Assembly (NCBI GenBank): GCA_030668875.1
Contig: DAOVER010000092.1
Location: forward strand, 1 to 7,476
From: Candidatus Heimdallarchaeota archaeon
Lineage (GTDB): Archaea; Asgardarchaeota; Heimdallarchaeia; Heimdallarchaeales; Heimdallarchaeaceae
DNA: 7,476 bases
Direction: 5' to 3'
Below, piece by piece: positions 1,059 to 7,379 of this stretch. Each line of letters opens with the position of its first letter. Within the stretch, counting starts at the first letter, position 1. Both the position numbers and the translations under genes were made by a program. The notes beneath the pieces are model-generated. The model was not told the origin of the DNA. It saw nothing but the letters and a program-made list of their open reading frames with translations, and ran no database searches.

Positions 1059-1151
1059 AATTACACCTTATCCAAATAAGTTTTAGCTATCTTAATAATT
1101 AATCCTAAACGATGATTAGTTTTTCTCTTCTTAAATTTATTCTATAATTCC

Positions 1152-1213
1152 GTCTCGGGACAAAAACATTTTTATATTCCTCTGAACAATGTAATATTGT
1201 CTCGGGACAAAAA
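1152..1213. repeat. Two exact 15-bp direct repeats GTCTCGGGACAAAAA (1152-1166, 1199-1213); candidate operator pair
   Basis: Read directly from the sequence, 47 bp apart. The second copy extends to the near-perfect palindrome TTGTCTCGGGACAA (1197-1210; 6 of 7 pairs match). Confidence 0.85.
1161..1176 (+). promoter_or_regulatory. Candidate BRE/TATA promoter for the 1217-2125 gene (and possibly actin)
   Basis: A-rich CAAAAA followed by TTTTTATA (1169-1176), about 40-50 nt upstream of the start codons. SD-like GAGTGA at 1215-1220 precedes ATG 1226. Confidence 0.55.
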
Positions 1214-1216
1214 TGA

Positions 1217-2125
1217 GTGATGAACATGAAAAATGAAAAAAAGAAAAGCCCAGGAAGACCAAGAAAATATGATACTAACGCGGAACGAAAAAAGGCCTAT
1301 CGTGAGCGTAAGAAAGAAGCTCATAGCAATTTGGAAGAAAGGGCAAAAAGAATCACGGAATTAAAAGGAAGAATTGATAATATGGAAAGAAAATTGGTAA
1401 AATCGACTTACACGGATCAGCATGTACCTGAAGAAATATCAGAAATACATGAACAAATAAAAGATCGGTCTAGGAAATATGCTCCTTCAGAGCTAATGGA
1501 TTTAGAAATTCATGAGCTTAAACGTATACAATCTGGTATTCATTCTAGATATCATGGAAGCTATTACAACCCTCTACGTGCAGCTCTTGAAAGTGCCATA
1601 ATGCCATCTGTTGATAAAGAATTTGATTCTAGAAAACAGAGTTTAGGAGAAAAACCCTTCGAAGTTATAGTTAAAGAAAAATTAGCTAAACCGAGTGATG
1701 AAGTTACTCCAAAAGCAGATATGAAAACAGAAGAATATTTGCAGAAAGCTAAGGAAAAAGGTTTAGAGGTTTCTGCAGAGGATTTGTCTGTTAAACCATC
1801 CACGATGGAGAAGAAAAATATAACGAGTCCCAAACACTGGAAACATCTGAAAGATATATTTAGGACTGATCAATTATTCGAGGTTTTTCAAGAATTGATA
1901 CTTCTCTACACAGTAGAAGCAGAAATATCTAGACGAGAAAGAGAGGTTGTTCAAACAAAGGATATCGAGAGATTAGAAAGACGTCAAGAAGAACTTGAGA
2001 AAATCATGAAGGATGATAAACTTAGACATGTTAAGAAATTTGTTAACAAAGCAGAAAAAAAGAGGAAATTGATAAAAAATGAAAAGAAAGAAAATAATGA
2101 CGAAAACAATAATAAAGAAACCTAA
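1217..2125 (+). CDS. Hypothetical highly charged protein: N-terminal basic region plus zipper (bZIP-like, putative DNA-binding) and a C-terminal coiled coil
   Basis: 302-aa ORF; the real start may be ATG 1220 or 1226. N-terminus PGRPRKYDTNAERKKAYRERKK is followed by a heptad repeat (L39/I46/I53/L60). C-terminal helix EAEISRREREVVQTKDIERLERRQEELEKIMK. No recognisable enzyme motif. Confidence 0.8.
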   Translation: MMNMKNEKKKSPGRPRKYDTNAERKKAYRERKKEAHSNLEERAKRITELKGRIDNMERKLVKSTYTDQHVPEEISEIHEQIKDRSRKYAPSELMDLEIHELKRIQSGIHSRYHGSYYNPLRAALESAIMPSVDKEFDSRKQSLGEKPFEVIVKEKLAKPSDEVTPKADMKTEEYLQKAKEKGLEVSAEDLSVKPSTMEKKNITSPKHWKHLKDIFRTDQLFEVFQELILLYTVEAEISRREREVVQTKDIERLERRQEELEKIMKDDKLRHVKKFVNKAEKKRKLIKNEKKENNDENNNKET

Positions 2126-2160: not shown

Positions 2161-3297
2161 TTGTCGGACGAACTCCATACCAAACCTCTGGTCTTAGATA
2201 ACGGTACAGGATTTACTAAAAATGGTTTCGGTGGTGAAGATCAACCAAGAAGTGTTTTCCCAACAATAATTGGTTATCCTAAGAACCCCGTTGTTATGCC
2301 TGATGTAGAGGCCTATTTTAGAGAATTTTACATAGGTGAAGAAGCCATGAATATGAGAGGCATTCTAAAACTTCAGTATCCACTAGAACACGGACAAGTC
2401 AGAGACTGGGGTGCTATGGAAAACATTTGGCATTATACTTTCTATAATGATCTCAGAGTAAATCCAAATGAACATCCAATCATGCTTACTGAACCTCCCT
2501 TGAATGATAACAAGAATAAGGAGAAAATGGCTGAGATGATGTTTGAGACGTTCAACGTTCCTGCGTTGTATATCTCAATGCAAGCGATACTCTCTCTCTA
2601 TGCCTCCGGTCGAACGACAGGAATTGTAATTGATATAGGTGATGGTGTTACTCATATTGTGCCAATCTATGAAGGTTTTGCCATATCCCATGCTATTTAC
2701 CGAGCTGATATTGGTGGTCGTGATATCACCGATTATCTAAAAAGATTACTCCGTCAACGTGGGCACTCTCTTACAACTAGTGCAGAGCTGGAAATTGTTC
2801 GAGATATTAAAGAGCGTCTCTGTTACGTACCATTAGATCCTGAAAAAGATTTACGACTAGCTGAGAAAGTCTCTGGTATGGAAAAAACCTATACTTTACC
2901 TGATGGAGATAATCTGACTATTAGTTCTGAAAGATTTATGGCTCCTGAATTACTTTTCAGTCCAGGAGTAATTGGTTCTGAAGAAGCTCCTCTTGATGAA
3001 CTAATCTACAGAATGGTGCAGAATTGTGATGTAGATCTAAGAAGAGATCTGTTTTCAAACATAGTTCTTTCAGGTGGAACAACAATGTTTCCAGGACTTA
3101 AAGAAAGGTTGAACAAAGAATTAATTGATCTAGTTCCAGAAACAACAGAAGTGAAAATAATTGCTCCTCCTGAACGAAGATATTCTGTGTGGATAGGTGG
3201 AAGTATACTTAGCTCCTTGAAAACATTCAAGAAACTATGGGTAACAAAGAAGGAATACAAAGAAATTGGCCCTTCAGCTGTCTATCGTTGTATCTAA
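2161..3297 (+). CDS. Actin (Asgard archaeal, Lokiactin-type), 378 aa
   Basis: Colinear with eukaryotic actin throughout: DNGTGFTK (phosphate 1), YPLEHG, EHPIMLTEPPLN, FETFNVPALY, QAILSLYASGRTTG, DIGDGVTHIVPIYEG (phosphate 2), YTLPDG, VLSGGTTMFPG (adenosine), IIAPPERRYSVWIGGSIL, EYKEIGPSAVYRCI. The GYPK..VM.DVE.Y D-loop and ...RCI terminus resemble Asgard actins as I recall them. There are no introns and the gene has a prokaryotic SD. Confidence 0.97.
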   Translation: MSDELHTKPLVLDNGTGFTKNGFGGEDQPRSVFPTIIGYPKNPVVMPDVEAYFREFYIGEEAMNMRGILKLQYPLEHGQVRDWGAMENIWHYTFYNDLRVNPNEHPIMLTEPPLNDNKNKEKMAEMMFETFNVPALYISMQAILSLYASGRTTGIVIDIGDGVTHIVPIYEGFAISHAIYRADIGGRDITDYLKRLLRQRGHSLTTSAELEIVRDIKERLCYVPLDPEKDLRLAEKVSGMEKTYTLPDGDNLTISSERFMAPELLFSPGVIGSEEAPLDELIYRMVQNCDVDLRRDLFSNIVLSGGTTMFPGLKERLNKELIDLVPETTEVKIIAPPERRYSVWIGGSILSSLKTFKKLWVTKKEYKEIGPSAVYRCI

Positions 3298-3326: not shown

Positions 3327-4634
3327 CCAAACATAACTTGTTAGTACAATTATTCCTAATAATACAACTCCAGCTGATGTTGAGCTGATAATAATCGTGA
3401 GACTATTTGATGTTCCATCAAAGATGTTCAAAGCTTTTGTCATACTATCTAGAAAACATTCAAAATCTTCCTCTAGAAAGCTATTAATTGCCTCTCGCTG
3501 GTATTTCTCAGATTTTGCTAGAACTCTTTCTGAATTGCTAGAAGATTGATCTCCAATCATTTCTTTATTATACTCCCAGATATTTTTCGTCAGATTAATT
3601 GCTTGGTCAAAATTGTTTTGCGTAGTCGTAGTCTGATAATAATCTATTGAACACCTATCTCCTACAATCCCCCATAGAACAGCAGGGTTTGTTGTTCCCC
3701 AATAAACAACCCATCCGTTATAGTGGCTCAAACCATTTTGAACACTTTGAGAATTTTCCTCACTTGGATTTATACAATAAGTAATTGTTGTTGAGTGAAA
3801 CGGCCAAGGTGTTTCACCACCTGTTGATTCTGACCTTACCTATCCATAAGGATGAAGGTAGAATTCGATAAGATAATGAATTAATGGTCCTATGAAAATG
3901 GATCGAGCAGGAATCCCAAGCGATCTTAGAAGAGCTACTGCTAGATTTGCTTTACCAACACAAACCCCCGACCCTTCTTGTAGAACTGTAAGAGCATCAT
4001 GGGCACTGCTGTAACCAAATATGACACCATTACCCGTGAAGTTAGATATAGTTTCAACAATAGTAACTGCGTTTGTGTCACTTCCAATAAGTTCTACAGC
4101 TTTTGAAGCTATCTCGGGATTATCGCTTTGGACATATTCTGTACTTTCCAGCCAGCCAATCACCTCTTCAGGCAATAGATACTCGGGAGTTATTGAAGCA
4201 TCGGAAGGTAAATCATCAAATTTATTGTACTCAATAAGAACTGGTACATTCCAGTAGATATAAACAACATCTGTGTTCTCTAGATTATTTATTGAAACTT
4301 CTAATAGCGAATTTCCAGAGGAATAATTGGATGATATTCTATAATCCTCTATAATATCTATTGGATTAGAATAAACTGAAAGAATAATTGGTGCTTGATT
4401 TAGATGAGCTATAGGTATGTGCATATAAATCTTAAAAGGACCAGTATCCGGTGATGCTGCTTGTATAGCAAAACACCCTGAAACGTTATACAAATAGACC
4501 TTTTTATCAACCGAAGTTGTTTGTTTGGTGCTGATTTCAGATGATTCTGGTGATAAATTTTGAGTTACAGTTAGTTGAATTCCTATTATCAAAATCACGA
4601 AAACAAATTTCCAAACATTTCTGGAACTACGCAT
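3309..4634 (-). pseudogene. Membrane-anchored/secreted transglutaminase-like (Cys-His) protein, 441 codons, interrupted by one in-frame TAG at 3840-3842
   Basis: ORFs 3840-4634 and 3309-3731 are in the same frame, and the 36 codons between them are open (VRSESTGGETPWPFHS...VQNG). Features: N-terminal signal peptide (RNVWKFVFVILIIGIQL); YVQSDNPEIASKA..L; TL..GSGVCVGKANLAVALLRSLGIPAR (catalytic Cys); IHYLIEFYLHPYG*VRSEST (His, then the G-W-x-x-x-D/E-x-T position); C-terminal TM helix plus KKRKK. It may be a true nonsense allele, a sequencing error or a readthrough gene. Confidence 0.8.
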
Positions 4635-4734: not shown

Positions 4735-4917
4735 ATGTCAGTTTATAGACCAGATGCGTTTATCTGCAATAACTGTGGACACAGGTTCAATAATGAAGAA
4801 AAAAAGATTTTGAAAGAGCAAATTGATGGAATTTTCACAACAAAAACAGTTTGTCCCAAATGCCTATCTGCAGACATTAAAACAACAATAACAGGGCAAA
4901 GGGATCCTGATGATTAA
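4735..4917 (+). CDS. Small Zn-ribbon protein (CxxC-x25-CxxC), 60 aa
   Basis: FICNNCGHRF ... TVCPKCLSADI; ATG start, tandem TAA TAA stop. Confidence 0.75.
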   Translation: MSVYRPDAFICNNCGHRFNNEEKKILKEQIDGIFTTKTVCPKCLSADIKTTITGQRDPDD

Positions 4918-4987
4918 TAAAAGTGTATTACGAGAGTAATTTCCTTATCTTACCTATTTTATAATTAGAATTAGCTTATTTTTGAAT

Positions 4988-5161
4988 ATGCAACCAGAAA
5001 CTCTTATAGAAGATATGAACAAAATCTTGGGGAAAATGGATAAAGAATTGAAGGGTTTAAATCGCGAATTGGACAAGATTTTGAGAAAATATCCTCGATA
5101 TATAGAAGATGATGAAGCAAAATTAAAGTATGCTTATCGTAAATACAATCACGGAAAATAG
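4988..5161 (+). CDS. Small hypothetical helical protein, 57 aa
   Basis: Below the ORF-track cutoff. Manual translation: MQPETLIEDMNKILGKMDKELKGLNRELDKILRKYPRYIEDDEAKLKYAYRKYNHGK*. It has an amphipathic heptad pattern and fills an otherwise empty 380-bp gap. Confidence 0.6.
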   Translation: MQPETLIEDMNKILGKMDKELKGLNRELDKILRKYPRYIEDDEAKLKYAYRKYNHGK

Positions 5162-6371: not shown

Positions 6372-6397
6372 GTCTGATTTTTATGTCAGACGCTTTT
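6372..6397. terminator. Possible hairpin terminator between convergent genes
   Basis: GTCTGA (6372-6377) and TCAGAC (6386-6391) form a 6-bp stem with a T-rich loop, followed by GCTTTT, in the 29-bp gap between two stop codons. Confidence 0.3.
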
Positions 6398-6572
6398 ACC
6401 TAAAATGTTCAATCATTGATTTCATTATCATACTCACAGCAAACTGAGCTTCTTCAGAAAGGTCGTTAAATCCTTTTCCACACTTTGGACAAGCTTCATA
6501 CCCTTCTGGTTCACTTTTAGTAAATTTTTCACCACAAGCAAAACAATAGATTGTATTTGGTAGTTTACTCAT
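6396..6572 (-). CDS. Small Zn-ribbon protein (CxxC-x14-CxxC) with a C-terminal helix, 58 aa
   Basis: Below the ORF-track cutoff. Manual translation: MSKLPNTIYCFACGEKFTKSEPEGYEACPKCGKGFNDLSEEAQFAVSMIMKSMIEHFR*. Confidence 0.75.
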   Translation of the reverse strand: MSKLPNTIYCFACGEKFTKSEPEGYEACPKCGKGFNDLSEEAQFAVSMIMKSMIEHFR

Positions 6573-6702: not shown

Positions 6703-7379
6703 ATGTTAATCAAGAAGAGAAAAAGTGTAGTAATGTTTGGATTTTTGTTATCTTTGTTCATATTTGGAGCAATTTCTGCATCAATAGTTTCAAATGCAGC
6801 CCAAAACGATATAGAAGAAACATATTCTGAACTTAATGAAGATTTGATAGATCATCCCCCAATAATAATAGCAAAAGATGCGGATTTTAGCTTATACAGT
6901 TTTCCTGGTTCTGGAACTCCAGCAGATCCTTATCTTATAGAGAATTATAATATAACTGGTCATCCAATTGGCATATCTATAGAAGGAAATGGATCAGTTC
7001 CTTTAACTATAAATTTCATTATAAGAAATTGCTTCATTCAAGCAGTGATACATGTATCAAAGTAGGTTATATGGGTCCTACTGCAGTAACAATAGATAAT
7101 TGCACTTGCGTAAATACATTTGCTGGCGACGGAACAGGGATTTATGTAATAGGTTGTGATGCACTGACGATAATCAACTGTAACTGCTATAATCATATTC
7201 ATACTGGAATTAGAACAGAATTTTGTGGAGGATTATGGTTAGAAAATAATACTTGCTACAACAATGCTGATGAAGGAATGTTCATAGACAATGCTTCTGA
7301 TAATGGAATGTTTAAGAGAAACTATTGTTATGGCAACGCACGTTATGAAACTTGGTTAAACTTGCCAAAGGCGGTCTAA
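6703..7379 (+). pseudogene. Secreted right-handed parallel beta-helix (NosD/CASH-like) surface protein, frameshifted near 7036-7045 and apparently truncated near 7340
   Basis: Signal peptide KKRKSVVMFGFLLSLFIFGAISASIV, then HPPIII..DADF...FPGSGTPADPYLIENYNI, an N-terminal cap common in archaeal beta-helix surface proteins. The coils (TIDNCTCVN, GIYVIGCDALTIINCNCYNHIHTGIRTE, LENNTCYNNADEGMFID) continue in the -1 frame (ORF 7029-7379). Confidence 0.75.

What the first reader, a model, noticed from the sequence alone, without database searches (positions are those of the whole stretch)
1250..1396. bZIP-like basic-leucine-zipper segment in an archaeal protein
Residues 21-60 fit the eukaryotic bZIP spacing N-x7-R-x9-L-x6-Phi-x6-Phi-x6-L exactly: N21, R29, L39, I46, I53, L60. 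NAERKKAYRERKK also lines up with the Yap1/PAP-type basic region (NRAAQRAFRERK), including the A-[F/Y]-R-E-R-K core. An AT-hook-like PGRPRK precedes it. bZIP factors are generally regarded as eukaryotic, so an Asgard candidate would bear on their origin. Caveats: the best hydrophobic a/d register (I46/L49/I53/M56/L60) is shifted from canonical bZIP; GRPRKY...A.R..AYR.R motifs also occur in small prokaryotic and plasmid proteins; and charged helices can mimic the pattern.
Basis: partly seen in the sequence, partly recalled or inferred. Interest (0 to 1): 0.8.

Follow-up and report, generated by a model that had tools for sequence, protein, structure and literature searches.

The report
bZIP-like head of Heimdallarchaeal autoregulator
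The segment is the probable DNA-binding head (AT-hook-like GRPRKY, a basic helix and a short coiled coil) of an uncharacterised regulator family found only in Heimdallarchaeia; it looks like a eukaryotic bZIP but fails bZIP membership tests, and its basic motif also occurs in bacterial and phage proteins.

Summary
Residues 21-60 match N-x7-R-x9-L-x6-Phi-x6-Phi-x6-L, PGRPRKY precedes them, and AlphaFold2 predicts one helix over 21-64.

The bZIP reading is only partly supported.
- For: Decoys show the signal depends on residue order in the basic region.
- Against: no member reaches Pfam's cut-off (window protein 9.6 bits against 27.6). N21 is Asp in 22 of 30 orthologs. The heptad phase is shifted and carries indels. 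Pfam bZIP_1 gives weak hits in all 14 prokaryotic control genomes.
- The same GRPRKY..[ND]AERxxAYRERKK motif occurs without a zipper in bacterial, plasmid-type and phage proteins, with far stronger statistics.

The family is confined to a few genera of one Asgard class (35 of 399 genomes).

Most family genes carry paired TTYGT-N6-ACRAA dyads around their own TATA box. The centre of the dyad changes with the subfamily's basic region. In this genome the core occurs only at these two sites.

Best reading: a dimeric autorepressor that works like a bZIP but is built on a prokaryotic motif, possibly co-transcribed with actin.

An earlier scan note (e1-2482448) describes the same promoter layout in another genome.

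The parts
1226..2125 (+). All-helical. Single copy in this genome.
   Evidence: ORF list and translation. 53 orthologs at 52-100% identity, all from Heimdallarchaeia-labelled bins. M4 is invariant. AF2 mean pLDDT 75.6, helices only. No second copy in the own genome.
1250..1270 (+). AT-hook-like PGRPRKY (residues 12-18). G13, R14 and P15 are invariant.
   Evidence: Alignment A1. Pfam AT_hook exceeds its cut-off in relatives P0063 and P0070 (19.0 against 17.4 bits) and P0168 (18.1). The window protein itself gets no hit at E<=0.05.
1277..1315 (+). Basic helix NAERKKAYRERKK (residues 21-33). This is the part that resembles the Pap1/Yap basic region and also the prokaryote/phage GRPRKY..AYRER motif.
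   Evidence: R24, K25, A27, Y28, R29, R31 and K33 are invariant in 30 orthologs, while N21 is not. HMMER alignments to 7aw7_D and 1gd2_E. Bacterial and phage carriers of the motif.
1331..1399 (+). Short coiled-coil segment (residues 39-61). Hydrophobic seam: L39, I46, L49, I53, M56, L60, V61.
   Evidence: Column statistics. AF2 predicts a single helix over residues 21-64 with pLDDT about 90. Indels in this stretch among orthologs.
1862..2119 (+). Conserved C-terminal module: RTDQL.EVFQEL.LLY.VEAE.SRRERE followed by a long charged helix. It is shared with the 180-245 aa paralogs and may be a second dimerisation element.
   Evidence: E236 and R240 are invariant across 44 family members. AF2 helix over residues 218-301. 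No Pfam, NCBIfam or fold match.
1149..1165 (.). Operator site 1: TCCGTCTCGGGACAAAA (core GTCTCGGGAC at 1152-1161), abutting the upstream side of the TATA-like box.
   Evidence: The equivalent site is conserved in orthologous loci.
1169..1178 (+). TATA-like box TTTTTATATT between the two operator sites.
   Evidence: Read directly from the sequence. The same ATTTTTATA/ATTTTTAAA box lies between the sites in orthologs. Its role as a promoter is inferred.
1196..1212 (.). Operator site 2: ATTGTCTCGGGACAAAA (core at 1199-1208), about 25 nt downstream of the TATA-like box. That places it over the expected transcription start or 5' leader.
   Evidence: GTCYCGRGAC occurs at only these two places in the 3.23-Mb genome.
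2161..3297 (+). Actin homolog 35 nt downstream on the same strand, with an AGGAGG Shine-Dalgarno box and a TTG start. Possibly co-transcribed with the regulator.
   Evidence: Pfam Actin E 1.1e-130. The gap holds no TATA-like box, and T-tracts follow the actin gene. Actin follows at -4 to 78 nt in 11 of about 19 long orthologs.

Best explanation
Residues 12-61 are the DNA-binding and dimerising head of a transcription regulator family found only in Heimdallarchaeia. The head has three parts: an AT-hook-like GRPRKY, a basic helix (AERKKAYRERKK) and a short coiled coil continuous with that helix.

The proposed mechanism is inferred, not shown. Two chains pair through the coil, and perhaps also through the conserved C-terminal helices. 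Each basic helix reads one 5-bp half of a 10-bp dyad (GTCYC|GRGAC). The GRPRKY arm lies in the minor groove of the flanking A/T tract (TTT...AAA). Two such dyads, 47 bp apart, bracket the gene's own TATA box. Occupancy would therefore block TBP/TFB or RNA polymerase and repress the gene itself, and probably the actin gene 35 nt downstream.

In architecture and likely docking geometry the head works like a bZIP. By descent, its basic motif belongs to a GRPRKY..[ND]AE[RK]x[RK]AYRER motif that is widespread in bacterial, plasmid-type and phage proteins. In this archaeal lineage that motif has been joined to a coiled coil.
For: Shown by tools:
- AF2 predicts one continuous helix over residues 21-64 at pLDDT about 90, starting right after GRPRKYDT.
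- The basic motif is the best-conserved part of the protein (G13, R14, P15, R24, K25, A27, Y28, R29, R31 and K33 are invariant in 30 orthologs).
- Of 48 distinct family genes from many genomes, most carry two TT[TC]GT-N6-AC[AG]AA dyads 41-47 bp apart around a TATA-like box (a few, such as L032, L042 and L046, show none). The dyad centre is subfamily-specific and tracks the basic region:
  - [ND]AERKKAYRERKK goes with GTCYCGRGAC.
  - NAERYKAYYERKK goes with GTGTTAACAC.
  - xADRSRAYYERKK goes with GTGTTAGTAC / GTGTTATCAC.
  - NADRQRAYYERKK goes with GTAAC[GA]ATAC.
  - [QR]S[EA]RQKAYHERKK goes with GTAGT[AG]AGAC.
  - VAEKQKAYRYRKK goes with GTAACGTTAC.
- Several variants are perfect palindromes, so both half-sites changed together, as expected for a homodimer.
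- By my grouping of the table, subfamilies with Arg at position 29 have a central CG in about 7 of 7 groups, and those with Tyr or His in about 1 of 5.
- The sites travel with this gene while the upstream neighbour differs (YccF, beta-helix, lactamase_B, DUF1295, Zn-ribbon).
- GTCYCGRGAC occurs only at 1152 and 1199 in the 3.23-Mb genome. I estimate about 2 occurrences genome-wide from base composition, and both lie within 47 bp.
- The motif is shared with prokaryotes. Examples are Oligella P0183 (E 1.9e-6 in a 5.8-billion-sequence library), Rhodococcus P0224, Acidobacteria P0222, and P0232, whose motif is followed by a stretch with a weak, sub-threshold Pfam match to plasmid regulator RepB (15.8 bits against 21; I read that stretch as ribbon-helix-helix-like by eye). 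Two IMG/VR phage contigs carry it next to terminase genes. PHROGs 28252 and 10506 hit at E 2.8e-5.
- bZIP-like similarity in register: PDB profile hits 7aw7_D E 5.8e-5, Pap1 0.0027, CREB 0.025. The signal is order-specific: 0/3000 full shuffles and 0-3/3000 shuffles of the basic region alone reach the real score.
Against: - No binding or dimerisation was demonstrated.
- Pairing of operator centre with basic region could partly reflect co-inheritance of gene and promoter. The subfamilies are few and not fully independent.
- Subfamilies with His29 have non-palindromic centres (GTAGTAAGAC), which does not fit a simple homodimer.
- The zipper is very short in the paralogs (two 'd' leucines).
- In the window's orthologs the zipper is out of canonical phase with the basic region. 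One-residue insertions in two clades leave the same operator unchanged. This is awkward for a rigid continuous-helix reader.
- The window protein's own GRPRKY does not score as a Pfam AT_hook.
- Some members (114-aa forms L032 and L042; L046) show no upstream dyads.
Confidence: 0.6

Rival explanations
1. It is a genuine homolog of eukaryotic bZIP factors of the Pap1/Yap type. It was either inherited from the archaeal ancestor of eukaryotes or acquired from a eukaryote, and it binds DNA exactly as a bZIP dimer does.
For:
- hhalign against the Pap1 fragment gives probability 60%, P 8.6e-5.
- 22 of 31 members give bZIP_1 hits. Every one of the 7 hits I checked that reaches the basic region places position 21 on the same profile column. 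I believe that column is the bZIP Asn, but that assignment is from memory.
- Short paralogs have hydrophobic residues at R+7, +10, +14 and +17. From my knowledge of GCN4, that is the canonical bZIP a/d phase.
- The operators are 10-bp dyads with abutting half-sites and a central CG when Arg29 is present. From the GCN4 and CREB literature, the conserved Arg contacts the central CG. That point comes from my own knowledge, not a tool.
- The host class is the archaeal group usually placed closest to eukaryotes (also my own knowledge).
Against: - No member passes Pfam's cut-off. The best scores are 25.0 against 27.6 bits (bZIP_1) and 18.4 against 22.3 (bZIP_2). The window protein scores 9.6.
- The hallmark Asn is Asp in 22 of 30 orthologs, and Arg is the commonest residue there in paralogs.
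- The zipper has 2 heptads in paralogs and is phase-shifted with indels in orthologs.
- bZIP_1 gives E<=1 hits in all 14 prokaryotic control genomes. This gene is not among its hits at E<=1 in its own genome.
- A reverse search with the Pap1 fragment is not significant.
- The same basic motif, at higher identity, occurs without a zipper in bacteria and phages, which gives a nearer source.
- The family is present in only 35 of 399 Asgard genomes, in a few genera of one class.
Confidence: 0.12
2. The segment is a generic charged helix in a structural or cytoskeleton-associated coiled-coil protein, for example a partner of the neighbouring actin. The upstream dyads are bound by some other regulator.
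For: - The protein is all-helical with long charged helices, and fold searches return only long helical proteins.
- Many unrelated coiled-coil Pfam families hit at the same weak level as bZIP: ADIP, CENP-F_leu_zip, LRIM1_dimer.
- The gene sits next to actin in many genomes. A paralog sits next to a different actin homolog.
Against: - The most conserved part is the basic motif, not the coil. That motif recurs in small bacterial and phage proteins with no coiled coil.
- The dyads follow the gene across different neighbourhoods, and their centres change with the basic region.
- Mini-ORFs of 50-56 aa consist of the head alone and still carry their own operator pair.
- The actin linkage is absent in several clades and in most paralogs.
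Confidence: 0.12
3. The basic motif is an RNA-binding arginine-rich segment. The protein autoregulates translation through the palindrome in its 5' leader.
For: Site 2 (1196-1212) probably lies in the 5' leader, just upstream of the Shine-Dalgarno-like box. Arginine/lysine-rich helices can bind RNA (my own knowledge).
Against: - Site 1 lies upstream of the TATA-like box and would not be transcribed, yet it is as well conserved as site 2.
- A 10-nt palindrome can form at most a 3-bp stem (read from the sequence).
- The sites have dyad symmetry with A/T flanks, which is typical of duplex DNA sites.
Confidence: 0.05

Closest known systems
Pap1/Yap-type bZIP transcription factors (PDB 1gd2 Pap1; 7aw7 'BZIP domain-containing protein'; Pfam bZIP_1 PF00170)
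   Same: - A basic helix runs straight into a heptad coil.
- The A-[YF]-R-E-R-K core and a Leu 10 residues after the Arg align in register.
- Short paralogs share the a/d phase.
- The probable targets are 10-bp dyads with abutting half-sites.
   Different: - Scores are below every Pfam cut-off.
- The hallmark Asn is not conserved.
- Positions +3 and +4 after it are R-K instead of small residues.
- The zipper has only 2-3 heptads, phase-shifted in the window's orthologs.
- An AT-hook-like arm is fused directly in front.
- A conserved, unrelated helical C-terminal module follows.
- The host is prokaryotic, with a narrow distribution.
Unnamed prokaryotic/phage GRPRKY..[ND]AE[RK]x[RK]AYRER motif proteins (some resembling Pfam RepB-RCR_reg PF10723; PHROGs 28252, 10506, 6334, 9651)
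   Same: The motif is nearly identical over about 22 residues. For example, phage L068 has GRPRKYATNADRQKAYRERKK, and Oligella P0183 has GRPRKYANQAERQRAYRQR. These matches are statistically far stronger than the bZIP matches.
   Different: - Those proteins lack the coiled coil.
- The motif can sit at the N-terminus, the middle or the C-terminus.
- In at least one protein (P0232) it is followed by a stretch I read as ribbon-helix-helix-like.
- None has the Heimdallarchaeal C-terminal module.
- The full-text search found no paper describing the prokaryotic motif; the only GRPRKY hits were plant AHL AT-hook papers.
AmzR of Methanosarcina (bioRxiv 10.1101/2025.05.05.652248) and GvpE of haloarchaea (PMC2241852): archaeal regulators described as bZIP-like
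   Same: They are archaeal regulators proposed to grip DNA with paired basic helices held by a coiled coil. They are described as analogous to bZIP and bHLH.
   Different: AmzR carries PAS and GAF ligand-sensing domains and has no recognisable DNA-binding sequence motif. Here there are no PAS or GAF domains, and the head does have sequence-level, in-register similarity to a bZIP subfamily plus an AT-hook-like arm. Homology to either protein was not tested directly.
AT-hook (Pfam PF02178), including the plant AHL R-G-R-P-R-K-Y type
   Same: The GRP core is flanked by basic residues, and GRPRKY is the literal AHL-type string. Relatives pass the Pfam cut-off. The operator flanks are A/T tracts.
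   Different: There is a single copy, fused to a helix. The window protein itself does not score. Minor-groove binding is inferred only.

Membership tests
bZIP (Pfam bZIP_1 PF00170 / bZIP_2 PF07716) | Score at or above the curated gathering cut-off | tested here: not met
   Window protein: bZIP_1 9.6 bits against 27.6. Best family member: 25.0 bits (P0063). bZIP_2 best: 18.4 against 22.3. A six-frame search of 5 genomes found none over the cut-off, and this gene is not among the hits in G000.
bZIP (Pfam bZIP_1 PF00170 / bZIP_2 PF07716) | Near-invariant Asn in the basic region (the N of N-x7-R/K) | tested here: not met
   Position 21 is D22/N7/A1 in 30 orthologs and R23/N17/D10/Q4 in 64 short paralogs.
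bZIP (Pfam bZIP_1 PF00170 / bZIP_2 PF07716) | Conserved Arg/Lys eight residues after the Asn | tested here: inconclusive
   R29 is present in 30 of 30 orthologs but in only 26 of 64 paralogs (H24, Y12, L2).
bZIP (Pfam bZIP_1 PF00170 / bZIP_2 PF07716) | Fixed spacing from the basic region to a zipper of at least 4 heptads with Leu at 'd' positions | tested here: not met
   - Leu at R+10 is kept (100% and 98%).
- In the window's orthologs the seam is 39, 46, 49, 53, 56, 60 = a, a, d, a, d, a.
- There are 1-residue insertions in two clades and one 7-residue insertion.
- Paralogs have the canonical phase but only two 'd' leucines.
bZIP (Pfam bZIP_1 PF00170 / bZIP_2 PF07716) | One uninterrupted helix through the basic region and zipper | tested here: met
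   The AF2 model has a helix over residues 21-64 with pLDDT about 90. This is a prediction, not a measurement.
bZIP (Pfam bZIP_1 PF00170 / bZIP_2 PF07716) | Parallel dimer through the zipper | not testable with these tools
SEC-MALS, CD or a structure is needed.
bZIP (Pfam bZIP_1 PF00170 / bZIP_2 PF07716) | Best profile relatives are bZIPs rather than unrelated coiled coils | tested here: inconclusive
   The top PDB hits are bZIPs in register (E 5.8e-5 and 0.0027), and the signal is order-specific. However, bZIP_1 gives E<=1 hits in all 14 prokaryotic control genomes, and the bacterial/phage motif matches are much stronger.
Prokaryotic/phage GRPRKY..AYRER motif proteins (unnamed) | Motif G-R-P-[RK]-x-[YH], then 2-3 residues, then [ND]-A-[ED]-[RK]-x-[RK]-A-Y-R-x-R | tested here: met
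   The window has GRPRKYDTNAERKKAYRERKK. The N-terminal profile finds Oligella P0183 (E 1.9e-6) and other bacterial proteins in a 5.8-billion-sequence library. It also finds two IMG/VR phage loci (E 2e-9 and 6e-8 among candidates) and PHROG families.
AT-hook (Pfam PF02178) | GRP core with flanking basic residues scoring over 17.4 bits | tested here: inconclusive
   Relatives pass the cut-off (19.0, 19.0 and 18.1 bits). The window protein residues 6-30 give no hit at E<=0.05.
AmzR-type archaeal zipper-like regulators | PAS/GAF sensor domains behind an N-terminal basic coiled coil | tested here: not met
   There are no PAS or GAF hits on the protein even at E<=10. The architecture described in 10.1101/2025.05.05.652248 differs.

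The most novel reading that the evidence does not exclude
The GRPRKY..[ND]AExQ[RK]A[YF]RERK motif of prokaryotic mobile elements is the evolutionary source, or a true relative, of the Pap1/Yap-type bZIP basic region. Heimdallarchaeia would then preserve the intermediate step in which it was joined to a leucine-zipper-like coil. In that reading, this family is a prokaryotic proto-bZIP that also acts as a dedicated regulator of an Asgard actin operon.
Probability: 0.12. Interest if true: 0.85.

Novelty: new variant of a known kind. Interest (0 to 1): 0.55.

Why it matters
Archaeal genomes appear short of recognisable transcription factors, and bZIPs are treated as a eukaryotic invention. This family gives a concrete, testable example of a basic-helix-plus-coiled-coil regulator in the archaeal class usually placed nearest to eukaryotes.

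It comes with a built-in assay. Each subfamily carries its own operator variant, so a residue-to-base recognition code can be tested by swaps.

The work also names a widespread, undescribed prokaryotic and phage DNA-binding-type motif (GRPRKY..AYRER).

The family should not be counted as a eukaryotic signature protein on present evidence.

The recurrent placement directly upstream of actin homologs suggests the first candidate dedicated regulator of an Asgard actin. That is relevant to how these cells control their cytoskeleton.

Tried and rejected
- Homodimer prediction of the full-length protein with alignment A3 (complex prediction): no verdict (score 0.02). I do not use it either way.
- Foldseek of the AF2 model against the PDB and the ESM Atlas shape search: only long helical proteins, nothing meaningful.
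- ESM Atlas feature search of residues 1-70: best score 0.84, below the usable range.
- NCBIfam: nothing.
- tblastn of a paralog head against the phage and plasmid collections: no match. The low-complexity filter probably masks the query, so I do not read this as absence.
- Reverse search of five Heimdallarchaeal genomes with the 47-residue Pap1 fragment printed: best E 0.35-1.0, not significant. Only in G084 was the top hit a family member.
- Literature: no paper links bZIP and Asgard archaea. GRPRKY appears only in plant AHL papers.
- Sequencing runs: no RNA holder is listed, so expression and co-transcription with actin could not be examined.
- A perfect Pap1-type site GTTACGTAAC lies upstream of the AFR-type paralog in L060. 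It is not reproduced upstream of the related P0075 gene in L070, which has only an AACGTT core. I dropped it as evidence.
- A regulon beyond the gene's own promoter: no further GTCYCGRGAC site exists in the genome.
- Mobile-element context for the paralog clusters: L055 neighbours are TPR, beta-propeller and hydrolase genes, with no viral or plasmid hallmarks.
Full report
**What is there**

The finding (nt 1250-1396) lies at the start of a + strand ORF, 1217/1226-2125.

The true start is probably ATG 1226. M4 is invariant in orthologs. The database gene call is 299 aa. A GAGTGAT Shine-Dalgarno-like box lies just upstream.

The next gene, 35 nt downstream, is an actin homolog (Pfam Actin E 1.1e-130). 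Orthologs of the ORF are labelled Heimdallarchaeaceae or Heimdallarchaeota, so the window comes from an Asgard archaeon. DNA runs holding the stretch are marine-sediment and cold-seep metagenomes.

**Is the pattern more than chance?**

The strict pattern N-x7-R-x9-L-x6-[LIVM]-x6-[LIVM]-x6-L occurs 4 times in 2566 ORFs of at least 120 aa in the own genome. Residue-shuffled ORFs give 0-3. Only this match is in a basic context, and no shuffle of the first 75 residues (0 of 200,000) reproduces it. AlphaFold2, run with a 44-sequence alignment, predicts one uninterrupted helix over residues 21-64 at pLDDT about 90, beginning right after GRPRKYDT.

**Conservation**

There are 53 orthologs at 52-100% identity. 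A full HMMER scan of 1.8 billion representatives adds a set of 180-245 aa paralogs. These share the N-terminal head, a 'TPSEIA.M' stretch and a C-terminal 'LLYL.EAE.A.R.R' helix.

In 30 orthologs, G13, R14, P15, R24, K25, A27, Y28, R29, R31 and K33 are invariant. N21 is Asp in 22, Asn in 7 and Ala in 1. In 64 short paralogs, position 21 is R23/N17/D10/Q4 and position 29 is R26/H24/Y12.

L39 (R+10) is kept everywhere. In the window's orthologs the hydrophobic seam is 39, 46, 49, 53, 56, 60. Two clades have one-residue insertions in this stretch, and one sequence has a seven-residue insertion.

The short paralogs have hydrophobic residues at R+7, +10, +14 and +17. From my knowledge of GCN4 this is the canonical bZIP phase, but the coil stops after two 'd' leucines.

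**Is it a bZIP?**

Evidence for:
- A profile of 64 short-paralog heads (A4) improves this to 5.8e-5 and 0.0027, followed by CREB and GCN4.
- hhalign of A2 against the Pap1 fragment gives 60% probability, P 8.6e-5.
- 22 of 31 members give bZIP_1 hits. The 7 hits I checked that include the basic region all place position 21 on the same profile column.
- A decoy test shows the signal is not compositional. No full shuffle (0/3000) and almost no shuffle of the basic region alone (0-3/3000) reaches the real score. Shuffling the Pap1 zipper within heptad classes often does (543/3000). The similarity therefore resides in the order of the basic region plus a generic heptad pattern in the right register.

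Evidence against:
- No member reaches a Pfam cut-off. The window protein scores 9.6 against 27.6 bits, and the best relative scores 25.0.
- The hallmark Asn is not conserved.
- The zipper is short or phase-shifted.
- A reverse search with the Pap1 fragment is not significant.
- Pfam bZIP_1 gives E<=1 hits in all 14 prokaryotic control genomes, and this gene is not among its hits in its own genome. Family members are, however, the top hits in three other genomes. They are also nearly the only hits there that extend into the basic-region part of the profile.

Membership is therefore not established.

**A nearer relative of the motif**

The head profile finds small bacterial proteins with the same motif but no zipper. 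Examples are Oligella (GRPRKYANQAERQRAYRQR, E 1.9e-6 in a 5.8-billion-sequence library), Rhodococcus and Acidobacteria. In P0232 the motif precedes a stretch with a weak, sub-threshold Pfam match to RepB-RCR_reg (15.8 bits against 21). I read that stretch as ribbon-helix-helix-like by eye.

Two IMG/VR phage contigs carry the motif in small ORFs next to terminase genes, for example GRPRKYATNADRQKAYRERKKGER at the C-terminus of a 73-aa protein. Four PHROG families match the head at E 3e-5 to 1e-3. These matches are several orders of magnitude better than any bZIP match.

The basic motif therefore belongs to a prokaryote-wide, undescribed module (no paper found). What is particular to Heimdallarchaeia is its fusion to a coiled coil and to the C-terminal module.

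The full family is confined to 35 of 399 Asgard genomes, all in one class and mostly in three genera. One of these genera carries up to six copies per genome. All 120 listed hits of the wide protein search carry Asgard labels, no label, or what I take to be mis-binned labels (Zixibacteria, Bathyarchaeia).

**What it probably does**

Upstream of the gene, GTCTCGGGACAAAA occurs twice (cores at 1152-1161 and 1199-1208), on either side of TTTTTATATT. The degenerate core GTCYCGRGAC occurs nowhere else in the 3.23-Mb genome.

The same layout holds in orthologs from other genomes, with perfect palindromes in several (GTCTCGAGAC, and TTGTCCCGGGACAA in L006). It holds although the upstream neighbour gene differs.

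Across 48 distinct family genes, most have two TT[TC]GT-N6-AC[AG]AA dyads 41-47 bp apart around a TATA-like box. The central hexamer is subfamily-specific and changes with the basic region:
- AYR-type heads go with ..CYCGRG.. or AACGTT.
- AERYKAYY mini-proteins go with GTGTTAACAC.
- ADRSRAYY goes with GTGTTAGTAC.
- RQKAYH goes with GTAGTAAGAC.

By my grouping of the table, Arg at position 29 goes with a central CG in about 7 of 7 subfamilies. Tyr or His does so in about 1 of 5. My Fisher calculation on those counts gives P of about 0.01, but the groups are few and related.

Symmetric change of both half-sites, sites that travel with the gene, and a site found only at the gene's own promoter together point to a homodimeric autoregulator whose basic helix reads the dyad. 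The A/T flanks fit a minor-groove role for GRPRKY. All of this is inference; no binding was measured.

**The actin link**

The 35-nt gap to actin holds a strong AGGAGG box and a TTG start but no TATA-like box. T-tracts follow the actin gene. Actin follows at -4 to 78 nt in 11 of about 19 long orthologs.

In another genus, a 246-aa paralog with the same operator type is followed at 23 nt by a different actin homolog (Pfam Actin 7e-78, 33-36% identical to the window's actin). This agrees with an earlier scan note (e1-5449694) proposing an autoregulated regulator-actin operon. Transcription data could not be obtained.

**Comparison and verdict**

In architecture and likely mode of action this is closest to Pap1/Yap-type bZIPs. 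By descent of the motif it is closest to the unnamed prokaryotic GRPRKY..AYRER proteins. It also joins two archaeal regulators already described as bZIP-like by analogy: AmzR (10.1101/2025.05.05.652248) and GvpE (PMC2241852).

I file it as a new variant of the basic-helix-plus-coiled-coil kind, not as a bZIP family member. The reading that it is a prokaryotic relative or precursor of bZIPs is not excluded, but I give it about 12%.

Noticed in passing
L071 2024-2764 and 2691-3896 (G011:C35); also L045, L056: A 246-aa paralog of the regulator (SAERKRAYRERKK head, GTCTCGGGAC-type operator) is followed at about 23 nt by a second, divergent actin homolog (Pfam Actin 7e-78, 33-36% identical to the window's actin). 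In that genome the 299-aa ortholog (9251-10150) is not followed by actin. Two regulator subfamilies are thus each paired with a different actin.
   Followed up: partly
L055 1057-1221; L058; L061; L059; proteins P0150, P0168: There are stand-alone mini-ORFs of 50-56 aa that consist only of the head (GRPRKY, basic helix and 2-3 heptads). Most have their own pair of perfect GTGTTAACAC dyads at about -56 and -98. In L055 the mini-ORF is followed by a 611-aa MalT-like TPR protein.
   Followed up: partly
L068 2854-3075 and L069 about 757-831 (IMG/VR phage contigs): Small phage ORFs carry the same GRPRKY..A[ED/A][RK]QKAYRERKK motif without a coiled coil. They sit between terminase small-subunit-like and large-subunit-like genes of GC-rich phages. 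Assigning those neighbours as terminases is my reading of the ORF translations, not a family search. This points to an undescribed phage DNA-binding module.
   Followed up: partly
window 6703-7065 and 7029-7379: A beta-helix (NosD-like) gene appears as two overlapping ORFs in different frames. In relatives it is one 386-755 aa gene. This may be a frameshift or an assembly error.
   Followed up: no
window 4735-4917, 4982-5161, 6396-6572(-): Three small ORFs of 58-60 aa flank the DUF389 gene. Two are zinc-ribbon-like. Their order is conserved in all related loci examined, so they are likely real genes.
   Followed up: no
L003 about 3955-3975: In this ortholog locus the two operator copies are only 17 bp apart and are separated by NNN. 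This is probably an assembly gap or masked bases that hide the TATA region.
   Followed up: no
L060 about 995-1006: A perfect GTTACGTAAC palindrome lies 29 nt upstream of the AEKQKAFRE-type paralog. From memory, this is the sequence known as the Pap1 site. It is not reproduced upstream of the related gene in L070.
   Followed up: yes
control genomes: Pfam bZIP_1 gives E<=1 hits in all 14 well-known bacterial and archaeal control genomes and exceeds its cut-off in one. This is a caution for any claim of a prokaryotic bZIP that rests on weak Pfam hits.
   Followed up: no
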